Position numbers and translations under genes: made by a program
The notes under the pieces: generated by a model
What the model saw: only the letters and a program-made list of their open reading frames with translations
What the model was told of the DNA's origin: nothing
Database searches by the model: none
In this document: positions 976 through 61,336 of the stretch, piece by piece
Numbering within the stretch: the stretch's first letter is position 1
Layout: the number at the start of each line of letters is the position of its first letter
Assembly (NCBI GenBank): GCA_964016885.1
Contig: OZ024762.1
Span: forward strand, 1,054,001-1,118,000
Length of the DNA stretch: 64,000 nt
Source of the DNA: Eledone cirrhosa
Taxonomy: Eukaryota
Direction: 5' to 3'

Positions 976-3900
976 GTAAGTGAAATTTATTAACATTCAG
1001 TTCATATCTACTTCTAATTCTGTTAAATATATAAGAATATCCACAGTAAAGGAAATCTCTGATCAGAAATGATTCATTCTTTAAAAAACGGGAGGTTCCT
1101 TTTGATTGATTTGCTGTAGTGCACCCGAGCACTGTACACAATAAGTTTCGTTATTTTTATTACATTTAAAGACAGTTTAGGCAACGACTAAAGTATTTTT
1201 GTTTTAAATCTTATGAAGATAACTTTAAGTTAATTTAATTGAAGTGATATTCCGTGAAATAATGTTTCAGATAAATTATAATTTATTGTAGTAGCTGTAT
1301 ATTTTTTTTAATTTAGTATTATTTTCAATACGTCCACACGTGTTACTCTAAATCAGTGATTCCCAACGTGGAAAGTGATATAACTTCCTCTACACATGTT
1401 ATCGTGTATCTGGCAACACCTACCAACAGTTTGTTTACAATTTGGAGTTGATTCTGATCATCGCAGCTTTGTTTAATTAAAGAATTTCTACTTTATATTA
1501 TATAAAATAAAGTACCAGTAATGTACTGGGTAATTTGCTGGCTTTGTGCCAAAAGTAGAAACAATTATATATACAGTAATTACACTTTTACAAAACTCAG
1601 TTTGTTTTTATATCAAAAGGAAACATAAACATTTGTTATATGTTGAGGCGAGGGGCAGAAGGTTTAGGAACTGATCTAAATAGATCATTCCACCAAATAT
1701 AACGAACGTTATTCATTAAATTAAATAAATATACTTACTATTTGTTATCTAGAATTCATTGTTCAGATGTCACGTATTTTATAATAATTATTCTTTCCTT
1801 CGACCTGCAATAAAATATAGGAACTTATTCTAATATAAGGTGGTGAAATGGCGGAATTGTTAAAGACGTCGGATAGCACCTTAAAAAATGAGTTATATTT
1901 GGGGATGTCCTAATATTGCCAATATATAGTAAAATACACTCACTGGTTGGTTTGGTTTTCGCTTCAGTTTATATATATTTTATATAGTTCTATAAATAAT
2001 AGTGACCATAGGTAGAATATAAACACCAACTGAGACGGGAACACCAGACAACACATGCACGCATGCGCAAACAGACGTAAATAAATAACTGTTTCTACTT
2101 TTGGCACAAGGCCAGCAAATAACCCAGTGTATTACTGGTACTTTATTTTATCGACCCCGTAAGGATGAAAGTCAAAGTTAACCTCGGCGGGATTTGAACT
2201 CAGAGCGTAAAGGGCCGTAACTCTTTGCTGCAAAGCATGGCGTCCGTCCCTCTACCAATACTGCCAATCCACCACAATACAACGACATTTGAGGTAGACT
2301 TTGACAGTTTCGACCCCCTACCAACGGTACTGCTGGTCAACCCGCGGTCACAGCGTCTGACGACACAAGCCAAAGCGCTGTCCAGTGTGTATATATATAT
2401 ATATGTATGTATATATATATATATATATGTATGTGTATGTATGTACACATGTATATATATATATATATATGTATGTGTATGTATGTACACATGTGTATAT
2501 ATATATTGTACTTTGGAGGGTCATATATATGTATATATAATAATAAATGTGAAGACTAAAATACGTATATGTATGTATATATATATGTGTGTGTGTATAT
2601 ACATATGTGTGTATATACATATATGTATGTATATATATATAAATATACATAAGTACCAGTCAAATACTGGGGTCCATTATTCTTCTATATCTCTGCTTAT
2701 TAACTTACTCCTTCACTGGAAGAAATCAGTTGGGCTCCGTCAGGTTTTAAAATGCCCCAAACATGCGCTATGTCCCTACACCTCTCCCACAAGTTACTGG
2801 TCCATATGTACATAACATTCTGATGTGTCCCAAACATGCGCTATGTCCCTACACCTCTCCCACAACTTACAGGTCCATATGTACATAACATTCTGATGTG
2901 CCCCAAACATGCGCTATGTCCCTACACCTCTCCCACAAGTTACTGGTCCATATGTACATAACATTCTGATGTGCCCCAAACATGCGCTATGTCCCTACAC
3001 CTCTCCCACAACTTACAGGTCCATATGTACATAACATTCTGATGTGCCCCAAACATGCGCTATGTCCCTACACCTCTCCCACAACTTACAGGTCCATATG
3101 TACATAACATTCTGATGTGCCCCAAACATGCGCTATGTCCCTACACCTCTCCCACAACTTACAGGTCCATATGTACATAACATTCTGATGTGCCCCAAAC
3201 ATGCGCTATGTCCCTACACCTCTCCCACAAGTTACAGGTCCATATGTACATAACATTCTGATGTGCCCCACGTGGCGATTATTAAAAATATTTCACATAT
3301 TCCCTTTGTTTTATATATATATATATGTATGTGTATGTATGTACACATGTGTATATATATGTATATATTCAAAAATGGGTGAAAGAGTGTGATATGTTTT
3401 GGAGTCACTGTCACAGCCTATCACTAAACTATTTGGAGAACTATGTCTTGCTATTACCTTCCATATTATTCTCACAGTTTCTACAACTGGATGCTCTTCA
3501 CTAACAACCTTTTACAGAGTGTACTGGGTGCTGAAAATTCTAATTGTTGATTCTATTTTCAGATTGGAAGATTTAGACACTGCTTATGATGAAGAACCTT
3601 TAGATGAACCAATTGAAAACCCTGAGGTGAGTATATATACTAGACTATCTCTCTCTCTCTATTATATATATATACTAGACTATCTCTCTCTCTCTATTAT
3701 ATATATATACTAGACTATCTCTCTCTCTCTATTATATATATATATACTAGACTATCTCTCTCTCTCTATTATATATATACACTAGACTATCTCTCTCTCT
3801 CTATTATATATATATATACTAGACTATCTCTCTCTCTCTATTATATATATACACTAGACTATCTCTCTCTCTCTATTATATATATATACTAGACTATCTC

Positions 3901-21026: not shown

Positions 21027-24000
21027 ATAATAATAAATGTGAAGACTAAAATCCAAAGAGGGCTCGATAAGGATAAATATATTAGAGTTTAAGCAAAGAA
21101 TCGGTGCTTTCACCCTTAACGGGATCTTTTGTTAAAGGTGAAAGCAGCGATTCTTAACTTAAACTTTAATCTGTTATTCTAATATATATATACACACATA
21201 TTTCAAATTAAAAGATATATGTGTATATATGTATAAATATATATATATTATATATTTATAGAGAGAGAGAGAGAGAACCACATATGAAAATATACAGTAT
21301 ATTATATATAATTGATGTTTTGATACCTTAAATTTATGTGTGTGTGTAGAGAGAGGTAGAGAGGTAGAGAGAGTTATGTGTACTTACACTGTCTTCATCA
21401 GCCCTTATATTAAAATCAATACTAGAGATCTTCTCATTAAACGTTGTGCTGTGGAAAACAATGGAAACAACATCACAACATACAGTAAACTGTTACTTCA
21501 CTATATGACAATGTCACAACTAGAACAATATATAGACGCATATAAACATATATATATACATACAGATATGTGGTATACATACACACACATATATAAGGGC
21601 ACACAAACACGTATATACACATATATTCATACACATTTAGATACATACACACACATATGTGTATGTATGTGTACCACACAAGACAAATTATATTCAAACC
21701 TGTCACACAATAAAAAAAAAAAATCAATAAAATAAATACAAAACTTGAAAAAAATAAGTAATGAAGGTGGGGGGTAATTTGATTGACTAAACCAAGGTAG
21801 TACTCCAGTATGGTCGCAATTAGATCGATTAAACCAAGGTAGTACCCCAGTATGGTCGCAATTAGATCGATTAAACCAAGGTAGTACCCCAGTATGGTCG
21901 CAATTAGATCGATTAAGCCAAGGTAGTACTCCAGTATGGTCGTAGTCTGATGACAGAAACCAGTAAAAGAAAAGAAAGAAATAAACAATAAAGAATAAAG
22001 AGAAAACTCACTCAATTTTGCCATCTTGGTCAGCAAAATCATGTTCACTGAAGCCAAATGTATCAATAAAATTTGATGTCATTTGGAGTTGGTAATCGGA
22101 GAAGGCCTGGCAGGAAATGGGAAGAAAAATAAAGAGTTAAAACAATTAGAACAAAGTTATATAGAGAGAAATAAACTCTATTTTTAGTCTATATTTCTAG
22201 AAATTAATGGCAGGGTTGATTTGATATTAATTGACAAGATCCCAGACTTCAATTGCTTACCAAGTGAGGTGGAACTTGTCAGATGAGACCAAGGAAACAA
22301 TGTTGGAGTAAAGCAAAGATTTAAGACACAGACGTAAGAAAGTTATATAGATAGAAATAAACTTTATTTTAGTCTATATTTCTAGAAACAAATGGCAGTG
22401 TTCATTAAATTTTTTATTTGATCCAAGTCGATAAAAATCCACACCTCCTTCGCCTACCAAGGTGGAACTCGTATCAGATCAAACCAAAGAAGCAATGTTT
22501 CCATTGGTCTTTCCAATTGCTGATAATATCTTCCAGTCACAAGTCAATACAATAGTTAATTTCATTCGTTTAACGTTTAACTCTTTCCATACTAAACTAC
22601 CAACAACTGCTCCTGCTTCTATGGATAAAGAGCTGTTTATTTTTAACTTAATGTACAGTAGTACCATATGGAAGGACATTAGCAAGAAGACAGTTTTGAA
22701 ACCTAACAAAACAGCGACTGCATCACATTGTCTTTACTGCAATACTGCAAATATCAACTACACTGATAGATAGAACTCTAGATAGAGATACACATCAGAG
22801 GAATACGAGAAGACATTCTGAAATGTAAATACATGCAAACAAAGGAAAATTATATATATAGATATATATATATATATATATATATAATAGAAAAAAATGA
22901 AGTTTTGTTTACATATAAGAAATATTTATTGTGTATCAACGAGCAGATCTATAATGGAGTCAGGTCCATAACTCCTATGGGTCACCTTGAGCCAATCTTC
23001 TGTGAAACACGCGTAACAGGTCAATACACAATAAATATTTTTCATATGTAAAGGAAACTTCCTCGTTTTCTTCTATTATATACACTGTCTGTGTATAGAG
23101 TGGTTGATTTGGTACCAACACCAGTATTTCACTGTACTACCTACACTATATATATATATATATATACACACACACATATATTTATATATACATACATATA
23201 TAAATATACATATATACATATATAGACACACACCCACACTCACTGGTATAATTTCAAAGGTACAATTATATTGATATCATAAGTCCCCTAGTTAACAGTA
23301 GACAAAGTACATGCAGGTCGACTAGACATGGAAAACAACTGTTTAAAAACCTCATATGTGGTACCTTCAACATTTATCCACAATAAAATCTGCTCTTGTA
23401 AAAGATAAGACTAAAAGATGGGAGTTTTTTTAGGTCCTATCAATAAAATGCTGGGCTTTTACACAGAGAAGGCCTGCATATATCCAAAATAAAAGCTGCT
23501 CTTGTAAAAAATAAGACTAAAAGATGGGAGTTTATTATGTCCTATCAATAAAATGCTGGGCTTTTTACGCAATCTTTGCCATAGAGACTAGAAATGACGC
23601 CTTAGTCTCACTCATCAATCTCAGTCTCTCTCTAACCATTGTGTATTGGTCATACAACAAGACTGCACCCTATTGTATACTGTACTCAACCTTTTATGTA
23701 AATCCTTGTGACTGTTAAAGAAATTGTTATCATCAATTGCTGGCCTTGTGCCTCAATCAGAAACCATTATTATTATTATTACAGACATACTCTCACCTAA
23801 GTGACAACCCAGATATATACCCGGGCCACCCCCAGTCGTTAAACCCCAACCCCAAAAAATGTTTTTAAATATATATATATCGGTCACAACGAAACAGGAA
23901 CTAGTGCAACGACAACTGAAGATGGTAACAACAACAACAGCAAAATAATAACAGTTATAATAATAATACTAATAATGAAGGTGGGTGGGGGGGGGGTTGC

Positions 24001-25728
24001 TTTGTAAAGAAGTGAGTGAATACAGTTGAGACGGGTGACTGGGGAGGGGGTGTTGGTGGAGAAATAGTACAAGCTACGAGACTAGAAAGTTAATATAGCC
24101 TGCTGTGAGTTGAGGGTATATTTCCAGAGATCTGAAGAAGGGCAGCAAGGCCATTTAAAGAGGGGGGTGTGGTGTGTGAGGCAAAGTGACCACTACTTAC
24201 TTGAGAGTAATTGGGTTTCTGGAAAAAAAAGTAACGATGGCAAAAAAAACATCAGTTGAGAGAAGTTAGAACAGAAGACAGATGGGGGGAGGGGGGGGGG
24301 GGCTAAAGATGGTGATTAGAAAACTAATTAATACTAATTAAAACTAGGGAACTAATTAGAAGGGGCCAGCTAAATCAAGTTAGGTGGGAGATGTAATTTC
24401 CATTCTATTATTTGACATATATTTGAGAGATCCTAGAAGGGTGAAAGGCAAAGTTAAACTCTAGACATAAACACTGTTGTAGGGAAAAACCCTGAACACC
24501 CCCGCGTAACTAGGAGTGGACTAGGCAAAATGTCTCTAAATAATAACTGAAGTCAACTGTCAGGTAGACTGTATATGGAGTGTCGTAGTGATCTTGTTGG
24601 TAGTTTAACATTAGGTCTGGTAAATACCTTGGTTTTACCTTCGTTAGTACAGGTGTACTAACAAGTGTAATACACCTTTATAACATGGCCATAACTAATA
24701 GAGACAATGTATCTAGGAGTAAAGGTGACAAAATGGAGAGAGTATATAGTAAAGAAGGGGGAGAAACTTAATGGAGAGAATGTTGTAAGGTGGACATGTT
24801 GGGGTTAATATATGTAGGGGACATGTTGGGGTTAATATATGTAGGGGACATGTTGGGGTTAATATATGTAGGGGACAGATTGGGGTTAATATATGTAGGG
24901 GACAGATTGGGGTTAATATATGTAGGGGACAGATTGAGGTTATATGTAGGGGACAGATTGAGGTTAATATAATATAGTAAAATAGACAGATTGGGGTTAA
25001 TATATGTAGGGGACAGATTGAGGTTATATGTAGGGGACAGATTGAGGTTAATATAATATAGTAAAATAGACAGATTGGGGTTAATATATGTAGGGGACAG
25101 ATTGAGGTTATATGTAGGGGACAGATTGAGGTTAATATAATATAGTAAAATAGACAGATTGGGGTTAATATATGTAGGGGACAGATTGAGGTTATATGTA
25201 GGGGACAGATTGAGGTTAATATAATATAGTAAAATAGACAGATTGGGGTTAATATATGTAGGGGATAGATTGAGGTTAATATAATATAGTAAAATAGACA
25301 GATTGGGGTTAATATATGTAGGGGACAGATTGAGGTTATATGTAGGAGACAGATTGAGGTTAATATAATATAGTAAAATAGACAGATTGGGGTTAATATA
25401 TGTAGGGGACAGATTGAGGTTAATATAATATAGTAAAGTAGACAGATTGGGGTTAATATAATATAGTAATGTGGACAGTATGATGTCAATTATATATAGT
25501 AAGGTGGACAAAGTTATTGGAGCTGTAGAGAGTGAATGTGGTAAAGGGGAGATAACTGACCTGTTGCATAACTGTATCTTGGTTAAAAGGCAAATCTCCA
25601 AAGTCTGTGTCATCATCTTCACTACTTGAATGTAATGGATGACCTTGAACCTACAAATTACAAAAACTCATCAATATATATATTTATATTTCTCCTTCTT
25701 GTTATATACATCAGAGAACTTGTTTTAC

Positions 25729-25781
<53 letters not shown>

Positions 25782-25843
25782 TTGCTCTTGTGTTGGGATG
25801 TAAACAGAACTGAAGACACTAATGTTTCTGGATGATTACTCTT

Positions 25844-25901
<58 letters not shown>

Positions 25902-26113
25902 GTTAAAATACTGGAGCGTGTTGGAGTAAAACACCCTCTTCGTATTGTAGAAATGACAGTAAAAGGTATAGCTCAATGTAATTAAACAGAGCCGAAGAAT
26001 TATGAAAGTAAAACAAAGAAGCCTTCAATACATCAAAATTCTTTATTAGCCAACAATGTTTCGTCCTATTAAGGACTCATCAGGGCAAATAAAACAACAA
26101 GAAGTATTATCGG

Positions 26114-26158
<45 letters not shown>

Positions 26159-27556
26159 TTATTAAAATAACAGATTAAAGTTTAAGCAAAGAATCGCTGC
26201 TTTCACCCTTAACGGGATCTTATATATGTAATAAGCAATAAGGTAAAGTTAGCAATACATACCAATTCAATTCTATTCTGCTTGTTGGTCTCAGCCAGAG
26301 TGGAGGAAACAAAAGTTGACCATTTATTTCTGTATTCTTCTGGAATCTCTGCAATACAAAATAACATTTGTTAGTGTCTGTGTGTCTGTATGTGTACATG
26401 CATGCCTTTTTGTGTGTATATGTATGTGTGTGCGTGTATATCTGTATGTATGTATGGTATGGTCCCATAACTCCTGATAGAGCTGTAGGGTGCTGTATTG
26501 ACATACAGCGTTTCTTGGGTATTTTAATCCTGGTGGACCCCCATCCCTCCCCAGGCCTGACCTGGTGGACCCCCATCCCTCCCCAGGCCTGACCTGGTAG
26601 ACCCCCATCCCTCTCCAGGCCTGAGTACAGCAGATTTCTTCCAGAGAAAGACAGAAAGTGAGAGAGAGGAAACGAAAAAGAGATATAGAGGAAGAATCGA
26701 CCCCAGTACTCGACTGGTACTTTTTTTTATTGACCTCGAAAGGATGAAAGGCAAAGTTGACCTCGGCAGGATTTGAACTCAGAGAGCAGAGAACCGGAAC
26801 ATATACCATAAAGTATTCTATCTGACGTTCTAATGACTGCCAATTCACCACCTATTCATGTGTATATATATGTATGTATAAAACAATATAATAAAGATAT
26901 TTACCTTTTAAGTATTCTTTAACTAGTTCACTGTTCTCTCCTTTTTCTATACATTCAGTGATGTGGTTGGCTATCTTAGTTAAATGTCCCATGTAACCTC
27001 GACGTCGACCACCGATCCGATGTCTGAAAAGTAATGACCAGAAACATTATATTTACACTGTCTTTTCTGTGGTGTGCATCCAGCTTGGAGTAATTCATAT
27101 TGAAAGGAAAATAAAATGGAATGACATTTACAGCTCACACTTACCGTATATACTAGAACATAAGCCGACCCCCACTATGTTATGTCTGGGAAATGGACAA
27201 TATTAGCCCCCAATATAAGCCGACCCCACTATGTTATGTCTGGGGGAAATGGACAATATTAGCCCCCAATATAAGCCGACCCCACTATGTTATGTCTGGG
27301 AAATGCGCAATATTGACCCCGAATATTAGCTGATACTTACTCATATTGGTCGTTTTCTTCCCAAGAATCAAGAATTCTCTGTATCAAATTACATCTAATA
27401 AATATCTGAATAGAAAGAAACAAAAAAATGAGGATCATATACACAACACATTGGTGTGTATATATATATATATATACAACACACTGGTGTATATATACAA
27501 CAGTACATGACAATCTGTTTAAACCATGCAGGCATGGAAAATAAATGCTAGAACAG

Positions 27557-35255: not shown

Positions 35256-37390
35256 GTGTGTGTGTGTGTGTAGAAGGTGAGTAATATTGTAGAACAATAA
35301 AACTATGCATATATCAGATAAGTAGCACTCAACAGTTGGTAGAACTGGAGTATATATAATAATAAAGAAGAAATTAAAAGATGGTTAAAAGAGTTGTTTA
35401 CAGGAAAGTGCTAAGTCTACATATGACAGAAATATAAGTGTTAAAACTTATATTTCTGTCATAAGTAGACTTAACACTTTCCTGTAAACAAGTGCTATTA
35501 TGCCTCATCACGTTACCTTATTTTATCTGATGAGAACACAATTTTTGTCCCAGGATGATTTTGTATTCGAAATGCGCATAATAAAAAATATGGAACTCTT
35601 TTAACCACCTTTTAATTTCTTCTTTATTATATATATTAATATATCAACATCATCATCGTTTAACGTCTATCTTCCACACTAGCATGGGTTTAGACGGGAA
35701 TTGTCCCACGTGAGACAAGATTGGTTGTCTTGCTTGTATAGGATTATCTGGCAGGTTTTCTACGGCTGGATGCCCTTCCTAACACGAAGCACGTTTACAG
35801 TGTGGACTGGGAGGTTTTTACCGTGACACCTATACGACCTCATTTATTCAGGATATATATATATATATATATATGTATGTATATATATATATGTATGTAT
35901 ACAGAGAGAGAAAGAGAGAGAGATTCTATATACTATACTGTATCTTGAAACATAAAAACACATTTCTTATATCAGCTTCGTTAGAGTACACACACACAAT
36001 TAGAGTACACAGGCATATATATATACATGTGTGTGTACTATAATGACACTATAGTATATATATATAACTACACCATTACTGGTAATGGTAATTAACAAAG
36101 CAACAGATGAAGTCAACACAAGAAACCCAGGGTGGAATTTAAATACAAACATACTGAAACCAACACCACAAGGTACCCTATACAACATTCTAATGATTCG
36201 GCCAGTAAATTACCCTAAACAACTTCTATATCAACCCCTGGAAAGATAAAGGGCAAAGTCGACCCCAGTAAATTACCCTAAACAACTTCTATATCAACCC
36301 CTGGAAAGATAAAGGGCAAAGTTGACCCCAGTAAATTACCCTAAACAACTTCTATATCAACCCCTGGAAAGATAAAGGGCAAAGTTGACCCCAGTAAATT
36401 ACCCTAAACAACTTCTATATCAACCCCTGGAAAGATAAAGGGCAAAGTTGAGACCCGACAGGATTTGAACTCAGACTGCAAGGATCTAGAAACAGGCATT
36501 TCACGGCATTTCAAAGTATTTCACCAGATGATCCCCAACTTCTGCTAAATAGCCACCAAAGTGAGTTATCATTTTCATATAAACTAGCAGAAGAACTGCC
36601 CCCACTTGGCAGTTTTTTGCTAGTATATGTAGTGTATATATTGATATTTTACGAAAATATATATGTATGTTGACATTTGAAAGTTTTAACAGAAGTCATG
36701 AAATAAGCAATACATTATATATAACATTATTTATGTTTCACCCTTTAGCATTTATATAACTCTATATTTCTTATATTTTCATGGTAAAGGCTTTATCTCT
36801 CCAAATATCTCACATAATATCAAATCTATGAGATTTTGATATTATTTATTTTCAGAACATTACTTTAAGATCAGTTAATCAAAGGGTTAATCAAGCGCTA
36901 AGAAATTTAGTAGAAAAATTACATAATATTCATTCATTATTTATTCAAATTCCTCCAACTTATTTTAATAACATGATGTAAAATAATAAACTGGACACAG
37001 TCTCGCGGTTCTGCAATCATTATATAGGAGATTGCTAAACAAAATGTGTTTACACTTGATTGCCTTTCCTAACATTGGTTGCAGATAGAGTGCCGAGTTT
37101 TATTGAACCCCCAGTAGTGTGTAATGTAGAATCTAAACACGGCTAGTAGTATATTTTGTGAATCACTATTGTAGAGACTGATAGCGGCTGATTTTGGTTA
37201 CTCTCATATTGTGGAGGAACAAAAGGTACGCAAAGAAATATGAAAATTTGCTGTGTCAGCTATGAAGAGAGAGAGAGAGAGAGAATTTGTAAGTAAATCA
37301 TACGAAAGTGTATGAATGAAAATAAACACCTACCTCTTTTTCAAGCAAAGAGTCAATGTGGGTTGAGGCAAGGTTGAACTTCCAAAACAT
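10571..37390 (-). CDS. PPP6R3: Serine/threonine-protein phosphatase 6 regulatory subunit (SAPS domain; PPP6R3-like), spliced, 983 aa with microexon
   Basis: 27 phase-consistent GT-AG exons totalling 2952 nt; starts [23 protein letters not shown], contains [63 protein letters not shown] and ends KNGPV, all characteristic of PPP6R/SAPS proteins. Confidence 0.96.
10710..11735 (+). repeat. 48-bp minisatellite (~21 copies) expanded from a SINE/LINE-tail segment
   Basis: Unit CACTGTAAAGTGGTCATGTAGGTGACATGACAAAAAGTACCCAGTACT runs directly into the retroposon tail (11735-11900); the same unit occurs in 1-2 copies at ~37720, 55570, 56770. Confidence 0.93.
12135..13668. repeat. 51-54-bp minisatellite (~29 copies)
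   Basis: Unit CCAACCACTTTACAG(AG)TGTTGTTGTGGCC(T)CTGACACAACAGAAGAACCCTCA with no unique spacers. Confidence 0.93.
13708..14028 (-). CDS. PPP6R3: PPP6R coding exon 26
   Basis: [19 protein letters not shown]...SKSNMIENI; S/T-rich low-complexity segment. Confidence 0.87.
15565..16092. repeat. 30-bp minisatellite (~17 copies)
   Basis: Unit GATATAACTTGTAACAGATGTTAACTGGGT. Confidence 0.93.
16381..16425 (-). CDS. PPP6R3: PPP6R coding exon 25 (45 nt)
   Basis: long pyrimidine tract..aataaag|[14 protein letters not shown]|gtgagt; phase 2-2. Confidence 0.72.
17407..17565 (-). CDS. PPP6R3: PPP6R coding exon 24
   Basis: [52 protein letters not shown]. Confidence 0.8.
17695..17930 (-). mobile_element. 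decayed RTE-clade LINE fragment
   Basis: With frameshifts, the minus strand reads [51 protein letters not shown], typical of the RTE ORF after the RT domain; a related copy lies on + at ~38502-38790. Confidence 0.7.
18136..18223 (-). CDS. PPP6R3: PPP6R coding exon 23
   Basis: [28 protein letters not shown]; phases 1 to 2 fit. Confidence 0.8.
18593..18666 (-). CDS. PPP6R3: PPP6R coding exon 22
   Basis: [24 protein letters not shown]. Confidence 0.87.
19129..19261 (-). CDS. PPP6R3: PPP6R coding exon 21
   Basis: [43 protein letters not shown]. Confidence 0.88.
19748..19884 (-). CDS. PPP6R3: PPP6R coding exon 20
   Basis: [29 protein letters not shown]...MDVDTTE. Confidence 0.88.
19912..20340. 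repeat. purine-rich (GA)n-GGTAGTGAGATA compound repeat
   Basis: Tandem GAGAGAGAGGGGTAGTGAGATA; forms a long pyrimidine tract on the sense strand upstream of exon 20. Confidence 0.88.
20553..20686 (-). CDS. PPP6R3: PPP6R coding exon 19
   Basis: [44 protein letters not shown]. Confidence 0.93.
21388..21448 (-). CDS. PPP6R3: PPP6R coding exon 18
   Basis: [20 protein letters not shown]. Confidence 0.88.
21789..21942. repeat. 42-bp tandem repeat (~3.5 copies)
   Basis: Unit AACCAAGGTAGTACCCCAGTATGGTCGCAATTAGATCGATTA. Confidence 0.85.
22012..22106 (-). CDS. PPP6R3: PPP6R coding exon 17
   Basis: [31 protein letters not shown]. Confidence 0.93.
24201..24218 (-). CDS. PPP6R3: PPP6R putative 18-nt cassette microexon (KPNYSQ)
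   Basis: ttttttttccag|AAACCCAATTACTCTCAA|gtaagt; phase 0-0 matching the flanking exons. Confidence 0.7.
24790..25470. repeat. compound minisatellite with higher-order periodicity
   Basis: Three subunit types built on GACAGATTG(G/A)GGTTA alternate in a recurring order. Confidence 0.88.
25561..25650 (-). CDS. PPP6R3: PPP6R coding exon 15
   Basis: [30 protein letters not shown]. Confidence 0.92.
26042..26093 (-). ncRNA. minimal type I hammerhead ribozyme motif
   Basis: TTTATTTGCC-CTGATGA-GTCCT-TAAT-AGGAC-GAAA-CATTG-TT-GGCTAATAAA: intact core, 5-bp stem II, 9 of 10 pairs in stem I. Confidence 0.8.
26263..26348 (-). CDS. PPP6R3: PPP6R coding exon 14
   Basis: [28 protein letters not shown]. Confidence 0.92.
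26905..27023 (-). CDS. PPP6R3: PPP6R coding exon 13
   Basis: [39 protein letters not shown]. Confidence 0.94.
27341..27405 (-). CDS. PPP6R3: PPP6R coding exon 12
   Basis: [21 protein letters not shown]. Confidence 0.92.
27632..27757 (-). CDS. PPP6R3: PPP6R coding exon 11
   Basis: [42 protein letters not shown]. Confidence 0.94.
27808..28216 (+). repeat. ~37-bp minisatellite (~11 copies) expanded inside a family A SINE
   Basis: Unit GGGGTGGATAAAATAAAGTACCGGTAATGTACTG flanked by SINE body sequence on both sides. Confidence 0.9.
28488..28646 (-). CDS. PPP6R3: PPP6R coding exon 10
   Basis: [53 protein letters not shown]. Confidence 0.93.
28889..29018 (-). CDS. PPP6R3: PPP6R coding exon 9
   Basis: [10 protein letters not shown]...[18 protein letters not shown]. 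Confidence 0.92.
29891..30233 (-). repeat. 88-bp tandem repeat (~4 copies) of a tRNA-like SINE head
   Basis: Minus strand GTGTGGCCCAGTGGTGAGGGTGTTGGACTT..GGGTTT(A/G)ATTCCTGGGCTGGGT repeated at 88-nt spacing. Confidence 0.8.
30312..30422 (-). CDS. PPP6R3: PPP6R coding exon 8
   Basis: [36 protein letters not shown]. Confidence 0.9.
31014..31126 (-). CDS. PPP6R3: PPP6R coding exon 7
   Basis: [37 protein letters not shown]. Confidence 0.92.
31701..31766 (-). CDS. PPP6R3: PPP6R coding exon 6
   Basis: [22 protein letters not shown]. Confidence 0.92.
31949..32128 (+). mobile_element. tRNA-derived SINE, family A, near full length
   Basis: TGGCAGTATCGG (A-box-like), GAGTTCAAATCC (B-box) and the family body. 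Confidence 0.7.
32446..33338. mobile_element. MITE-like element containing a 31-bp minisatellite (~25 copies, 32470-33254)
   Basis: Inverted ends AAATTCCATTATAACAAAATT / AATTTCGTTATAACGGAATTTCACTG-TA; internal unit CCATTTGTTTCAATCCCCGGGGTAATACACT. Confidence 0.75.
33496..33633 (-). CDS. PPP6R3: PPP6R coding exon 5
   Basis: [46 protein letters not shown]. Confidence 0.94.
34050..34236 (-). CDS. PPP6R3: PPP6R coding exon 4
   Basis: [13 protein letters not shown]...[24 protein letters not shown]. Confidence 0.94.
34470..34556 (-). CDS. PPP6R3: PPP6R coding exon 3
   Basis: [28 protein letters not shown]. Confidence 0.92.
35102..35181 (-). CDS. PPP6R3: PPP6R coding exon 2
   Basis: [26 protein letters not shown]. 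Confidence 0.93.
35521..35586 (+). ncRNA. minimal type I hammerhead ribozyme motif
   Basis: TTTTAT-CTGATGA-GAACACAA-(19 nt)-TTGTATTC-GAAA-TGCGCA-TA-ATAAAA; palindromic stem III ATGCGCAT. Confidence 0.72.
36202..36452. repeat. 63-bp tandem repeat (4 copies) at the end of a SINE
   Basis: Unit CCAGTAAATTACCCTAAACAACTTCTATATCAACCCCTGGAAAGATAAAGGGCAAAGTTGACC. Confidence 0.85.
37334..37390 (-). CDS. PPP6R3: PPP6R coding exon 1
   Basis: [19 protein letters not shown]|gtaggt; acceptor 11 nt before ATG (exon starts 37401). Confidence 0.93.
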
Positions 37391-41902: not shown

Positions 41903-41948
41903 AAATAAAATAAATAAGTCAAATGTTTAAAATTTAGCTTTATTTATT

Positions 41949-42003
41949 ACTGCTATATATATTTCGGTGACAGCCATCTTTGGCTGTGACCTCTTCAGGC
42001 AGT
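41949..42003 (-). ncRNA. minimal type I hammerhead ribozyme motif
   Basis: ACTGC-CTGAAGA-GGTCACAGCC-AAAGAT-GGCTGTCACC-GAAA-TATATA-TA-GCAGT; perfect 5-bp stem I, 9 of 10 pairs in stem II, palindromic stem III. Confidence 0.82.
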
Positions 42004-42093
42004 CTGAATTAGTGTGGTAGAGACAAGTACATATGTTGTTGAGGTGTATAACCTTGTCAATACTCTGATATGCCCAGTTCCTGGTTTGGTTGT

Positions 42094-61110: not shown

Positions 61111-61336
61111 TTTATTAAAATAACAGATTAAAGTTTAAGCAAAGAATCGCTGCTTTCACCCTTAGCGGGATCTTCCGAAACTAACAAAGATCCCGTTAAG
61201 GGTGAAAGCAGCGATTCTTTGCTTAAACTTTAATCTGTTATTTTAATAAATATTTGCTCTACGGTTCTTATATATTTGATATATATTTATCCTTATCGAG
61301 ACCTCTTTGGATTTTAGTCTCCAAATTTATTATTGT

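What the first reader, a model, noticed from the sequence alone, without database searches (positions are those of the whole stretch)
26042..26093. Second sense-strand hammerhead, in the intron between PPP6R coding exons 14 and 15
Seen: CUGAUGA-GUCCU-UAAU-AGGAC-GAAA-CAUUG-UU with a 10-bp stem I (one mismatch), inside a ~220-nt unique segment bounded by (TA)n on both sides and followed by one arm of the fold-back family. The triplet is GUU and loop III is only 3 nt, so weak or dimer-dependent activity is expected. Its stems are unrelated to the 41949 motif, suggesting a separate family.
Basis: partly seen in the sequence, partly recalled or inferred. Interest (0 to 1): 0.75.

Follow-up and report, generated by a model that had tools for sequence, protein, structure and literature searches.

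The report
Hammerhead of a truncated Penelope retrotransposon
This is a real hammerhead-ribozyme motif, but it is the cut-off end of a jumping gene (a Hydra-type Penelope-like retrotransposon) whose hammerhead occurs over 2,300 times in this genome, and as a lone copy in an intron that is still spliced out it is likely close to inactive.

Summary
The motif is there as described: a type I hammerhead on the minus strand, sense to PPP6R, in the 612-nt intron between coding exons 14 and 15, cut site 26052|26051. The segment is not unique. It is the 5'-truncated end of a 4.7-4.9 kb Penelope-like retrotransposon with an intact 897-aa RT/GIY-YIG frame and the Hydra-clade motifs, inserted in (TA)n. 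Its 35-nt core occurs 1,249 times with GUU and 1,058 times with GUC; GUU is inherited from mobile lineages and is already recorded in 10 of 25 published Hydra families. The ribozyme is conserved across lineages, so it likely serves the element. The lone copy is predicted to misfold and has no dimer partner; one contig shows the intron spliced. Copies end at two points 101 nt apart, each 6 nt before a bulged hairpin, and inverted insertions use one end each (16 of 16); these likely mark two reverse-transcription starts. The scan has reported Hydra stubs and such hairpins before, on other DNA of this and other genomes. Cleavage is untested. New member of a known kind; interest low.

The parts
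25898..26119 (-). 5'-truncated 3' end of a Hydra-clade Penelope-like element (last ~120 nt of the pseudo-LTR plus the 101-nt tail); no promoter-side sequence, no ORF; 3 nt of microhomology with the TA run at the 5' junction, 1 nt at the 3' junction
26041..26094 (-). type I hammerhead, whole motif with stem I
26077..26083 (-). catalytic core CUGAUGA
26063..26076 (-). stem II and loop II (4 bp + 6-nt loop, or 5 bp + 4-nt loop)
26059..26062 (-). core GAAA
26053..26059 (-). helix III: 2 bp + 3-nt loop as a monomer; a 7-nt odd palindrome that gives 6 pairs in a dimer; the same letters pair with the core in the predicted inactive fold
26051..26052 (-). predicted cleavage site after U17 (GUU); GUC in 1,058 and GUU in 1,249 exact copies
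   Evidence: cleavage not tested
25971..25992 (-). bulged hairpin 1 (GCUC ... UU-GAGC), starting 6 nt after the family's first 3' end (26001-25999); hairpin 2 lies 6 nt beyond the end of this copy and is absent here
25898..25998 (-). 101-nt tail between the two 3' ends of the family; identical in sequence to the start of the 5' UTR in full-length copies
25848..25898 (.). (TA)n target, 3' side of the insertion
26118..26154 (.). (TA)n target, 5' side of the insertion
25651..26262 (-). host intron (GT..AG, 612 nt) between PPP6R coding exons 14 and 15
   Evidence: spliced in one contig of run X6
26263..26348 (-). PPP6R coding exon 14
25561..25650 (-). PPP6R coding exon 15
   Evidence: 33,330 exact 22-mer matches

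Best explanation
The motif is the pseudo-LTR hammerhead of a young Hydra-clade Penelope-like retrotransposon, left in the PPP6R intron as a 5'-truncated end copy in a (TA)n run, where it is likely close to inactive. Shown: family membership, copy numbers, intact full-length relatives with the hammerhead in both flanking repeats, two fixed 3' ends, conservation of the ribozyme. Inferred: the element's endonuclease nicked the TA run and its reverse transcriptase started on the element RNA 153 nt downstream of the cut site, 6 nt before hairpin 2, copied about 220 nt through the uncut or re-joined hammerhead and stopped. In full-length transcripts two hammerheads 4.7-4.9 kb apart likely pair through the palindromic helix III, possibly helped by the element's protein, and cut out a unit-length RNA. 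The lone intronic copy has no partner, is predicted to fold into a core-blocking structure, and would cut the pre-mRNA rarely if at all.
For: Copies share the 3' end and differ in 5' extent, from 235 nt to the 1,718-nt limit of the loci; 28 of the 29 closest copies run into TA-rich sequence at the same point, 1 continues into the element body. Twenty copies picked for long open frames among 150 scored hits carry RT then GIY-YIG; motifs: RW[RKC] 19 of 20, DKT 19, YRDD 19, CxCx5C 20, CxxC 20, CxH 18, two cysteines inside GIY-YIG 0, the Hydra signature of PMC8557442 section 11. Nine of the 20 passed my filter for a hammerhead in both direct repeats, unit 4,742-4,925 nt. Exact 35-mers: GUU 1,249, GUC 1,058, reversed controls 0. 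GUU is inherited, not CpG decay after insertion: the mirror change has 10 copies, both arms share the triplet in 18 of 18 inverted pairs, and 5 of 19 open-frame elements have GUU. In those 19 (of 20; chosen by protein, not by ribozyme) 0 of 39 ribozyme columns other than position 17 carry a variant shared by two elements, against 17 of 72 flank columns (Fisher p 5e-4, columns not independent). Monomer: active secondary structure 4.8 kcal/mol above the core-blocking fold, ensemble share about 1.5e-4; active dimer -28.5 against -28.4 for two monomers. A 3,608-nt contig of run X6 joins exon 14 to exon 15. PLE hammerheads were inactive alone and weak as dimers in PMC4209133; the anole one needed the element's protein and was dispensable for insertion in vitro in PMC11167929.
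Against: No cleavage was measured. Nearest-neighbour energies leave out the loop I-loop II tertiary contact, so the 1.5e-4 share is not a rate, and I ran no known active hammerhead as a control. The best two-strand fold (-31.2) is also inactive, so even the dimer is not the predicted ground state. A monomer with a 2-bp helix III cleaved 22% in one hour in axolotl (PMC7229834 passage), so some monomer activity is possible. The spliced contig is one record of one run whose kind is not on record; it shows that splicing happens, not how much pre-mRNA is lost. Every copy examined spans the cut site, which fits uncut RNA as well as cut-and-rejoined RNA. The unit (4.7-4.9 kb) and tail (101 nt) are longer than described for the clade (<3 kb; 30-40 bp for PLE tails). 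No tree with named Hydra proteins was built; likeness to Hydra-1_Obim was judged by eye.
Confidence: 0.87

Rival explanations
1. The hammerhead is a passenger even in full-length elements: uncut RNA is the template, and cleavage plays little or no part in transposition.
For: All copies examined span the cut site. Lineages with GUU, which I recall as slower than GUC, multiplied at least as well (1,249 against 1,058). Hammerhead mutants did not affect insertion in vitro in the anole element (PMC11167929).
Against: The ribozyme is the most constrained part of the repeat (0 of 39 against 17 of 72 columns), and the only position that varies stays within the cleavable NUH set (GUU listed as active in PMC3138052 passages). 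The constraint could still reflect structure or protein binding rather than cleavage.
Confidence: 0.3
2. The lone copy cuts PPP6R pre-mRNA at a rate that matters, alone through tertiary contacts or in trans with another copy's RNA or the element's protein, and tunes PPP6R output.
For: Sense orientation, complete core; thousands of potential partner copies; contigs of run X6 also lie on the element.
Against: Predicted core-blocking fold; copy is 97-99% identical to dispersed copies, so it is recent, with no time-depth to show host selection; orientation is a one-in-two chance; the 41949 hammerhead cannot complete stem I with it (by inspection); intron spliced.
Confidence: 0.07
3. The ~220-nt segment is a self-standing non-autonomous unit (retrozyme or SINE-like) with its own defined ends.
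For: Size is in the retrozyme range (170-400 nt, PMC7229834 abstract passage); bounded by TA on both sides in the window.
Against: 5' ends vary continuously and run into a 4.8-kb coding element; no short tandem arrays of the unit were seen in the loci examined.
Confidence: 0.03

Closest known systems
Hydra clade of C-terminal EN+ Penelope-like elements, nearest named family Hydra-1_Obim (Craig et al. 2021, PMC8557442; seen: abstract, passages, sections 3, 6, 11, supplement search hits and parts 2 and 53)
   Same: RT then GIY-YIG in one frame; DKT, CxCx5C, CxxC, CxH, no CCHH; (TA)n targets; sense hammerhead near the 3' end with an odd-palindromic helix III; U at position 17 in 10 of 25 listed Hydra families, Hydra-1_Obim among them
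   Different: RWR in place of RWK; unit 4.7-4.9 kb with a 1.9-kb 3' UTR and an 897-aa protein against <3 kb (Hydra-1_Obim 2,507 bp); different stem I and II sequences; full pLTR-ORF-pLTR copies present
Minimal and short-helix-III hammerheads of metazoan PLEs (Cervera and de la Pena 2014, PMC4209133; seen: parts 1-2 of 4 of the text)
   Same: type I, in the flanking repeats, mostly single truncated copies genome-wide, palindromic helix III, predicted dimer use
   Different: canonical 4-5 bp stem II with no extra nucleotide before it; two triplet variants of about equal number
Poseidon element of the green anole, PAc (Frangieh et al. 2024, PMC11167929; seen: parts 1-2 of 4)
   Same: two internal 3' ends downstream of the hammerhead with the tail between them; AT-rich targets
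   Different: tail of 101 nt rather than 30-40; both ends lie upstream of the start codon; each end is followed by its own copy of one bulged hairpin rather than lying in one AC-rich stem-loop
Rfam RF00163 Hammerhead_1 (type I)
   Same: full model matched, core and stem II nearly identical to the consensus
   Different: 28.2 bits, under the gathering score of 34; U at 17; 3-nt loop III
Animal non-LTR retrozymes (PMC7229834, passages; bioRxiv 10.64898/2026.07.22.740005, part 1 of 5)
   Same: type I hammerhead derived from or related to PLE repeats
   Different: not a short tandem unit; part of an autonomous coding element

Membership tests
Type I hammerhead ribozyme | CUGANGA and GAAA core around stem II, stem I open-ended, N-U-H site | tested here: met
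Type I hammerhead ribozyme | Rfam RF00163 gathering score of 34 bits | tested here: not met
   28.2 bits, E 7.1e-5; a curated cut-off, not a functional feature
Type I hammerhead ribozyme | active fold accessible as a monomer | tested here: inconclusive
   4.8 kcal/mol above a core-blocking fold, tertiary contacts not modelled
Type I hammerhead ribozyme | site-specific self-cleavage | not testable with these tools
   needs an in vitro assay or raw nascent reads
EN+ Penelope-like element | single ORF with RT and GIY-YIG endonuclease | tested here: met
   897 aa; YRDD in 19 of 20 and GIY-YIG-type motif in 20 of 20; Pfam GIY-YIG weak, E 0.003-0.015, under cut-off, not seen for L089; homologue P0117 hits RVT_1
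EN+ Penelope-like element | partial tandem (pLTR) and inverted 5'-truncated copies, one-sided tail | tested here: met
EN+ Penelope-like element | hammerhead in the pLTR, sense strand | tested here: met
Hydra clade | DKT in place of DKG | tested here: met
   19 of 20
Hydra clade | RWK motif near the N terminus | tested here: met
   present as RW[RKC] in 19 of 20, RWR in L089; Hydra-1_Crog also reads RWR
Hydra clade | CxCx5C linker, CCHH absent, CxxC and CxH near the end | tested here: met
   20, 0, 20 and 18 of 20
Hydra clade | (TA)n insertion preference | tested here: met
Hydra clade | generally under 3 kb (typical, not defining) | tested here: not met
   4,742-4,925 nt in 9 units
Hydra clade | placement in an RT tree with named Hydra families | not tested
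   reference proteins seen only as cut text in a supplement
Neptune / Nematis / Poseidon | CCHH with two cysteines between GIY and YIG | tested here: not met
   0 of 20
Naiad | N-terminal endonuclease, no canonical hammerhead | tested here: not met
   endonuclease is C-terminal
Non-LTR retrozyme | short non-coding tandem unit with fixed length | tested here: not met
   variable 5' ends running into a coding element
Host-conserved intronic hammerhead | same position and sequence kept across distant species | not testable with these tools
   no related genomes are held for this window

The most novel reading that the evidence does not exclude
Hydra-clade elements set their two reverse-transcription start sites with twin bulged hairpins (GCUC-stem-loop-NN-GAGC) placed 6 nt downstream of each start, a boundary signal like that of a telomerase RNA, and one insertion event fires both starts, one for each arm of an inverted insertion; this family's 101-nt spacing and intact proteins make that directly testable, and its GUC and GUU lineages are a natural test of how much cleavage a PLE needs.
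Probability: 0.5. Interest if true: 0.6.

Novelty: new member of a known kind. Interest (0 to 1): 0.24.

Why it matters
As an intronic ribozyme of PPP6R it matters little: it is one of thousands of retrotransposon ends. The family is useful as material. It is young, has many open 897-aa frames, two sharply defined 3' ends with a matching hairpin behind each, and two equally successful lineages that differ at the cleavage nucleotide while the rest of the ribozyme is fixed. That bears on two open questions about Penelope-like elements, the closest relatives of telomerase: what the hammerhead is for, and how the reverse transcriptase picks its internal start.

Tried and rejected
Rfam at gathering threshold over the window: 0 matches. 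The repeat finder on the window was swamped by TA arrays. Naiad and Nematis, my first guesses for the clade, were rejected on domain order and the missing CCHH. GUU as CpG decay after insertion: rejected. No RNA holder listed for the stretch; no raw reads, so no coverage step at the cut site could be sought. Runs X1 and X2 gave only short low-identity pieces near 25642-25695 and say nothing on an empty site. Laying X6 and X3 on a full-length copy showed no GT-AG joint in the 5' UTR and no informative ends; contigs cannot show absence. Identity of the two repeats within an element (0.986-1.0 over 142 nt) exceeds the mean between elements (0.853-0.958), but the closest other element reaches 1.0 in three cases, so this does not separate a circular from a linear template. 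Mean divergence within the GUU and GUC samples was alike (0.895, 0.901, inflated by deletions), so I cannot say which lineage is younger. The protein search returned 316 unnamed relatives at 34-45% identity, no names; Pfam did not recognise the RT of L089. A paper giving GUU against GUC rates was not found; that GUU is slower is recalled. The search on intronic cleavage and splicing gave a listing only, not read. The whole-intron fold lacked the first two intron bases.

Full report
Observation. The minus strand reads stem I, CUGAUGA (26083-26077), stem II, GAAA (26062-26059), C-AUU-G-U, U17 (26052), stem I. Rfam RF00163 matches it at 28.2 bits, E 7.1e-5 on 501 bases, under the gathering score of 34; the fold has z -3.07. 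PPP6R is on the same strand. Fifteen coding exons, placed by eye from the start codon near 37390, put the motif between exons 14 and 15. A 3,608-nt contig of run X6 joins the two exons and skips 612 nt with GT..AG ends, 25651-26262; the run's kind is not on record and this is one record.

What the segment is. A search of the genome with 25899-26116 gave 2,050 candidates; all 40 scored were full length at 97-100% identity. Among the 30 fetched, 28 of the 29 others pass into TA-rich sequence at the same base and 1 continues into unique sequence; shared sequence extends 5' for 235 nt up to the 1,718-nt limit. Longer stretches showed an RT/GIY-YIG frame upstream. A search with its N-terminal part scored 150 of 15,789 candidates; I fetched 20 with open frames of 912 codons or more. 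They hold an 897-aa frame that starts about 230 nt after the cut site of a 5' repeat and ends about 1.9 kb before the hammerhead of a 3' repeat. Nine of the 20 passed my filter for both direct repeats, with units of 4,742-4,925 nt. The window copy is the last 220 nt or so of such a unit.

Clade. Section 11 of PMC8557442 defines Hydra by RWK, DKT, CxCx5C, no CCHH, CxxC and CxH, and (TA)n targets. In the 20 frames: RW[RKC] 19, DKT 19, CxCx5C 20, two cysteines inside GIY-YIG 0, CxxC 20, CxH 18. By eye the N terminus and RT motifs follow Hydra-1_Obim, but hammerhead stems and length differ, so this is another family. No tree was built. File S2 of that paper lists U at the cleavage site in 10 of 25 Hydra families and the same odd-palindromic helix III, so neither GUU nor the short loop III is new.

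The triplet. Exact 35-mers number 1,249 with GUU and 1,058 with GUC; 2,634 keep core and stem II; reversed controls are 0. C17 is part of a CpG, but the mirror change on the other strand has only 10 copies, both arms share the triplet in 18 of 18 inverted pairs, and 5 of 19 open-frame elements carry GUU. GUU therefore spread from active masters. In the 19 of 20 protein-selected elements that gave a copy, none of 39 ribozyme columns outside position 17 has a variant shared by two elements, against 17 of 72 flank columns. The ribozyme is constrained in the element's lineage; that the constraint is for cleavage is inferred.

Activity of the lone copy. The minimum-energy fold pairs the helix III letters with the core; the active secondary structure lies 4.8 kcal/mol higher, ensemble share about 1.5e-4, alike in the window copy, the whole intron and two full-length members, one GUC and one GUU. 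In a dimer helix III has 6 pairs and the active form scores -28.5 against -28.4 for two monomers, though the best two-strand fold, -31.2, is inactive too. These energies ignore tertiary contacts. Published PLE hammerheads were inactive alone and weak as dimers (PMC4209133) or needed the element's protein (PMC11167929); an axolotl monomer with a 2-bp helix III cleaved 22% in an hour (PMC7229834 passage). The 41949 hammerhead belongs to another repeat family (2,091 candidates; no similarity at its hammerhead region) and could not complete stem I with this one. I conclude the copy is likely close to inactive and of no use to the host; this is inference.

Two ends and twin hairpins. In 40 copies taken as every fifth of the first 100 listed for each triplet, 23 end about 53 nt after the cut site, 16 about 153 nt after it, and 1 runs into the ORF. 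The window copy has the longer end. Of 18 inverted pairs, 16 had both ends in view and all 16 have one end of each kind; 9 of these came from hits selected for the long end, 7 did not; one search shows the rule in 8 of 8 sampled pairs by alignment, partly the same ones. Earlier notes of this scan (e1-9570883, e1-9815236) led me to look for hairpins. A GCUC...UU-GAGC bulged hairpin occurs exactly twice per unit in 9 of 9 units, none on the other strand, starting 6 nt after each end, 101 nt apart (100 in L100); the inner stems of the two differ in sequence and both pair. By eye, Hydra-1_Ajap begins with two such hairpins and Hydra-2_Ajap ends with one. In the anole element the tail is the stretch between two internal RT starts, so the hairpins likely mark the starts here. 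The main text of PMC8557442 has no 'hairpin', 'stem-loop' or 'palindrom', and two searches listed no paper that describes such hairpins in Hydra elements by title or abstract start; I did not read those papers beyond the ones named, and the library misses most subscription journals. Supplements of the bioRxiv preprint were not seen.

Mechanism in brief. Shown: origin, copy number, ends, conservation, splicing of the intron. Inferred: nicking of (TA)n, reverse transcription from the downstream start through the uncut or re-joined hammerhead, early stop after about 220 nt; dimer- or protein-assisted cleavage in full-length RNA only.

Verdict. A real motif with an ordinary origin: new family of a known clade. 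The host organism was not determined. Interest 0.24; the part worth following is the element's priming signal and the GUC/GUU pair, which the scan has in part noted before on other DNA.

Noticed in passing
window 41930-42090 (-), loci L101-L120: The 41949 hammerhead belongs to another young TA-inserting repeat (2,091 candidates, 40 scored at 96-100%), often in inverted pairs; its copies also stop at a fixed point or continue into a stretch that begins with a short ACTC/GAGT palindrome.
   Followed up: partly
window 26155-26221; also 21081-21183 and 61114-61247: End piece of a very abundant repeat (33,330 exact 22-mer matches) that forms fold-back pairs in the window and sits beside copies of the Hydra family in L085 and L141 too.
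   Followed up: partly
L089, oriented 3640-3665 (just before the start codon): A pyrimidine-rich stretch ending in CAG directly before the ATG looks like a splice acceptor, as in the 5' UTR intron of other PLEs; no matching joint was seen in contigs.
   Followed up: partly
ORF of L089, about residues 490-640: A long Asn/Ser/Gly-rich insert between the RT thumb and the linker makes the protein 897 aa, against mostly 670-810 aa in the listed relatives.
   Followed up: no
loci L001-L100: At least five other hammerhead-like families with different stems turned up in the flanks of the fetched loci.
   Followed up: no
run X6 on window 26022-26093: One contig carries A at position 17 (GUA), a third triplet variant.
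   Followed up: no
window 20000-48000: PPP6R introns hold many minisatellites of 31-106 nt period and TA arrays up to 4.7 kb.
   Followed up: no
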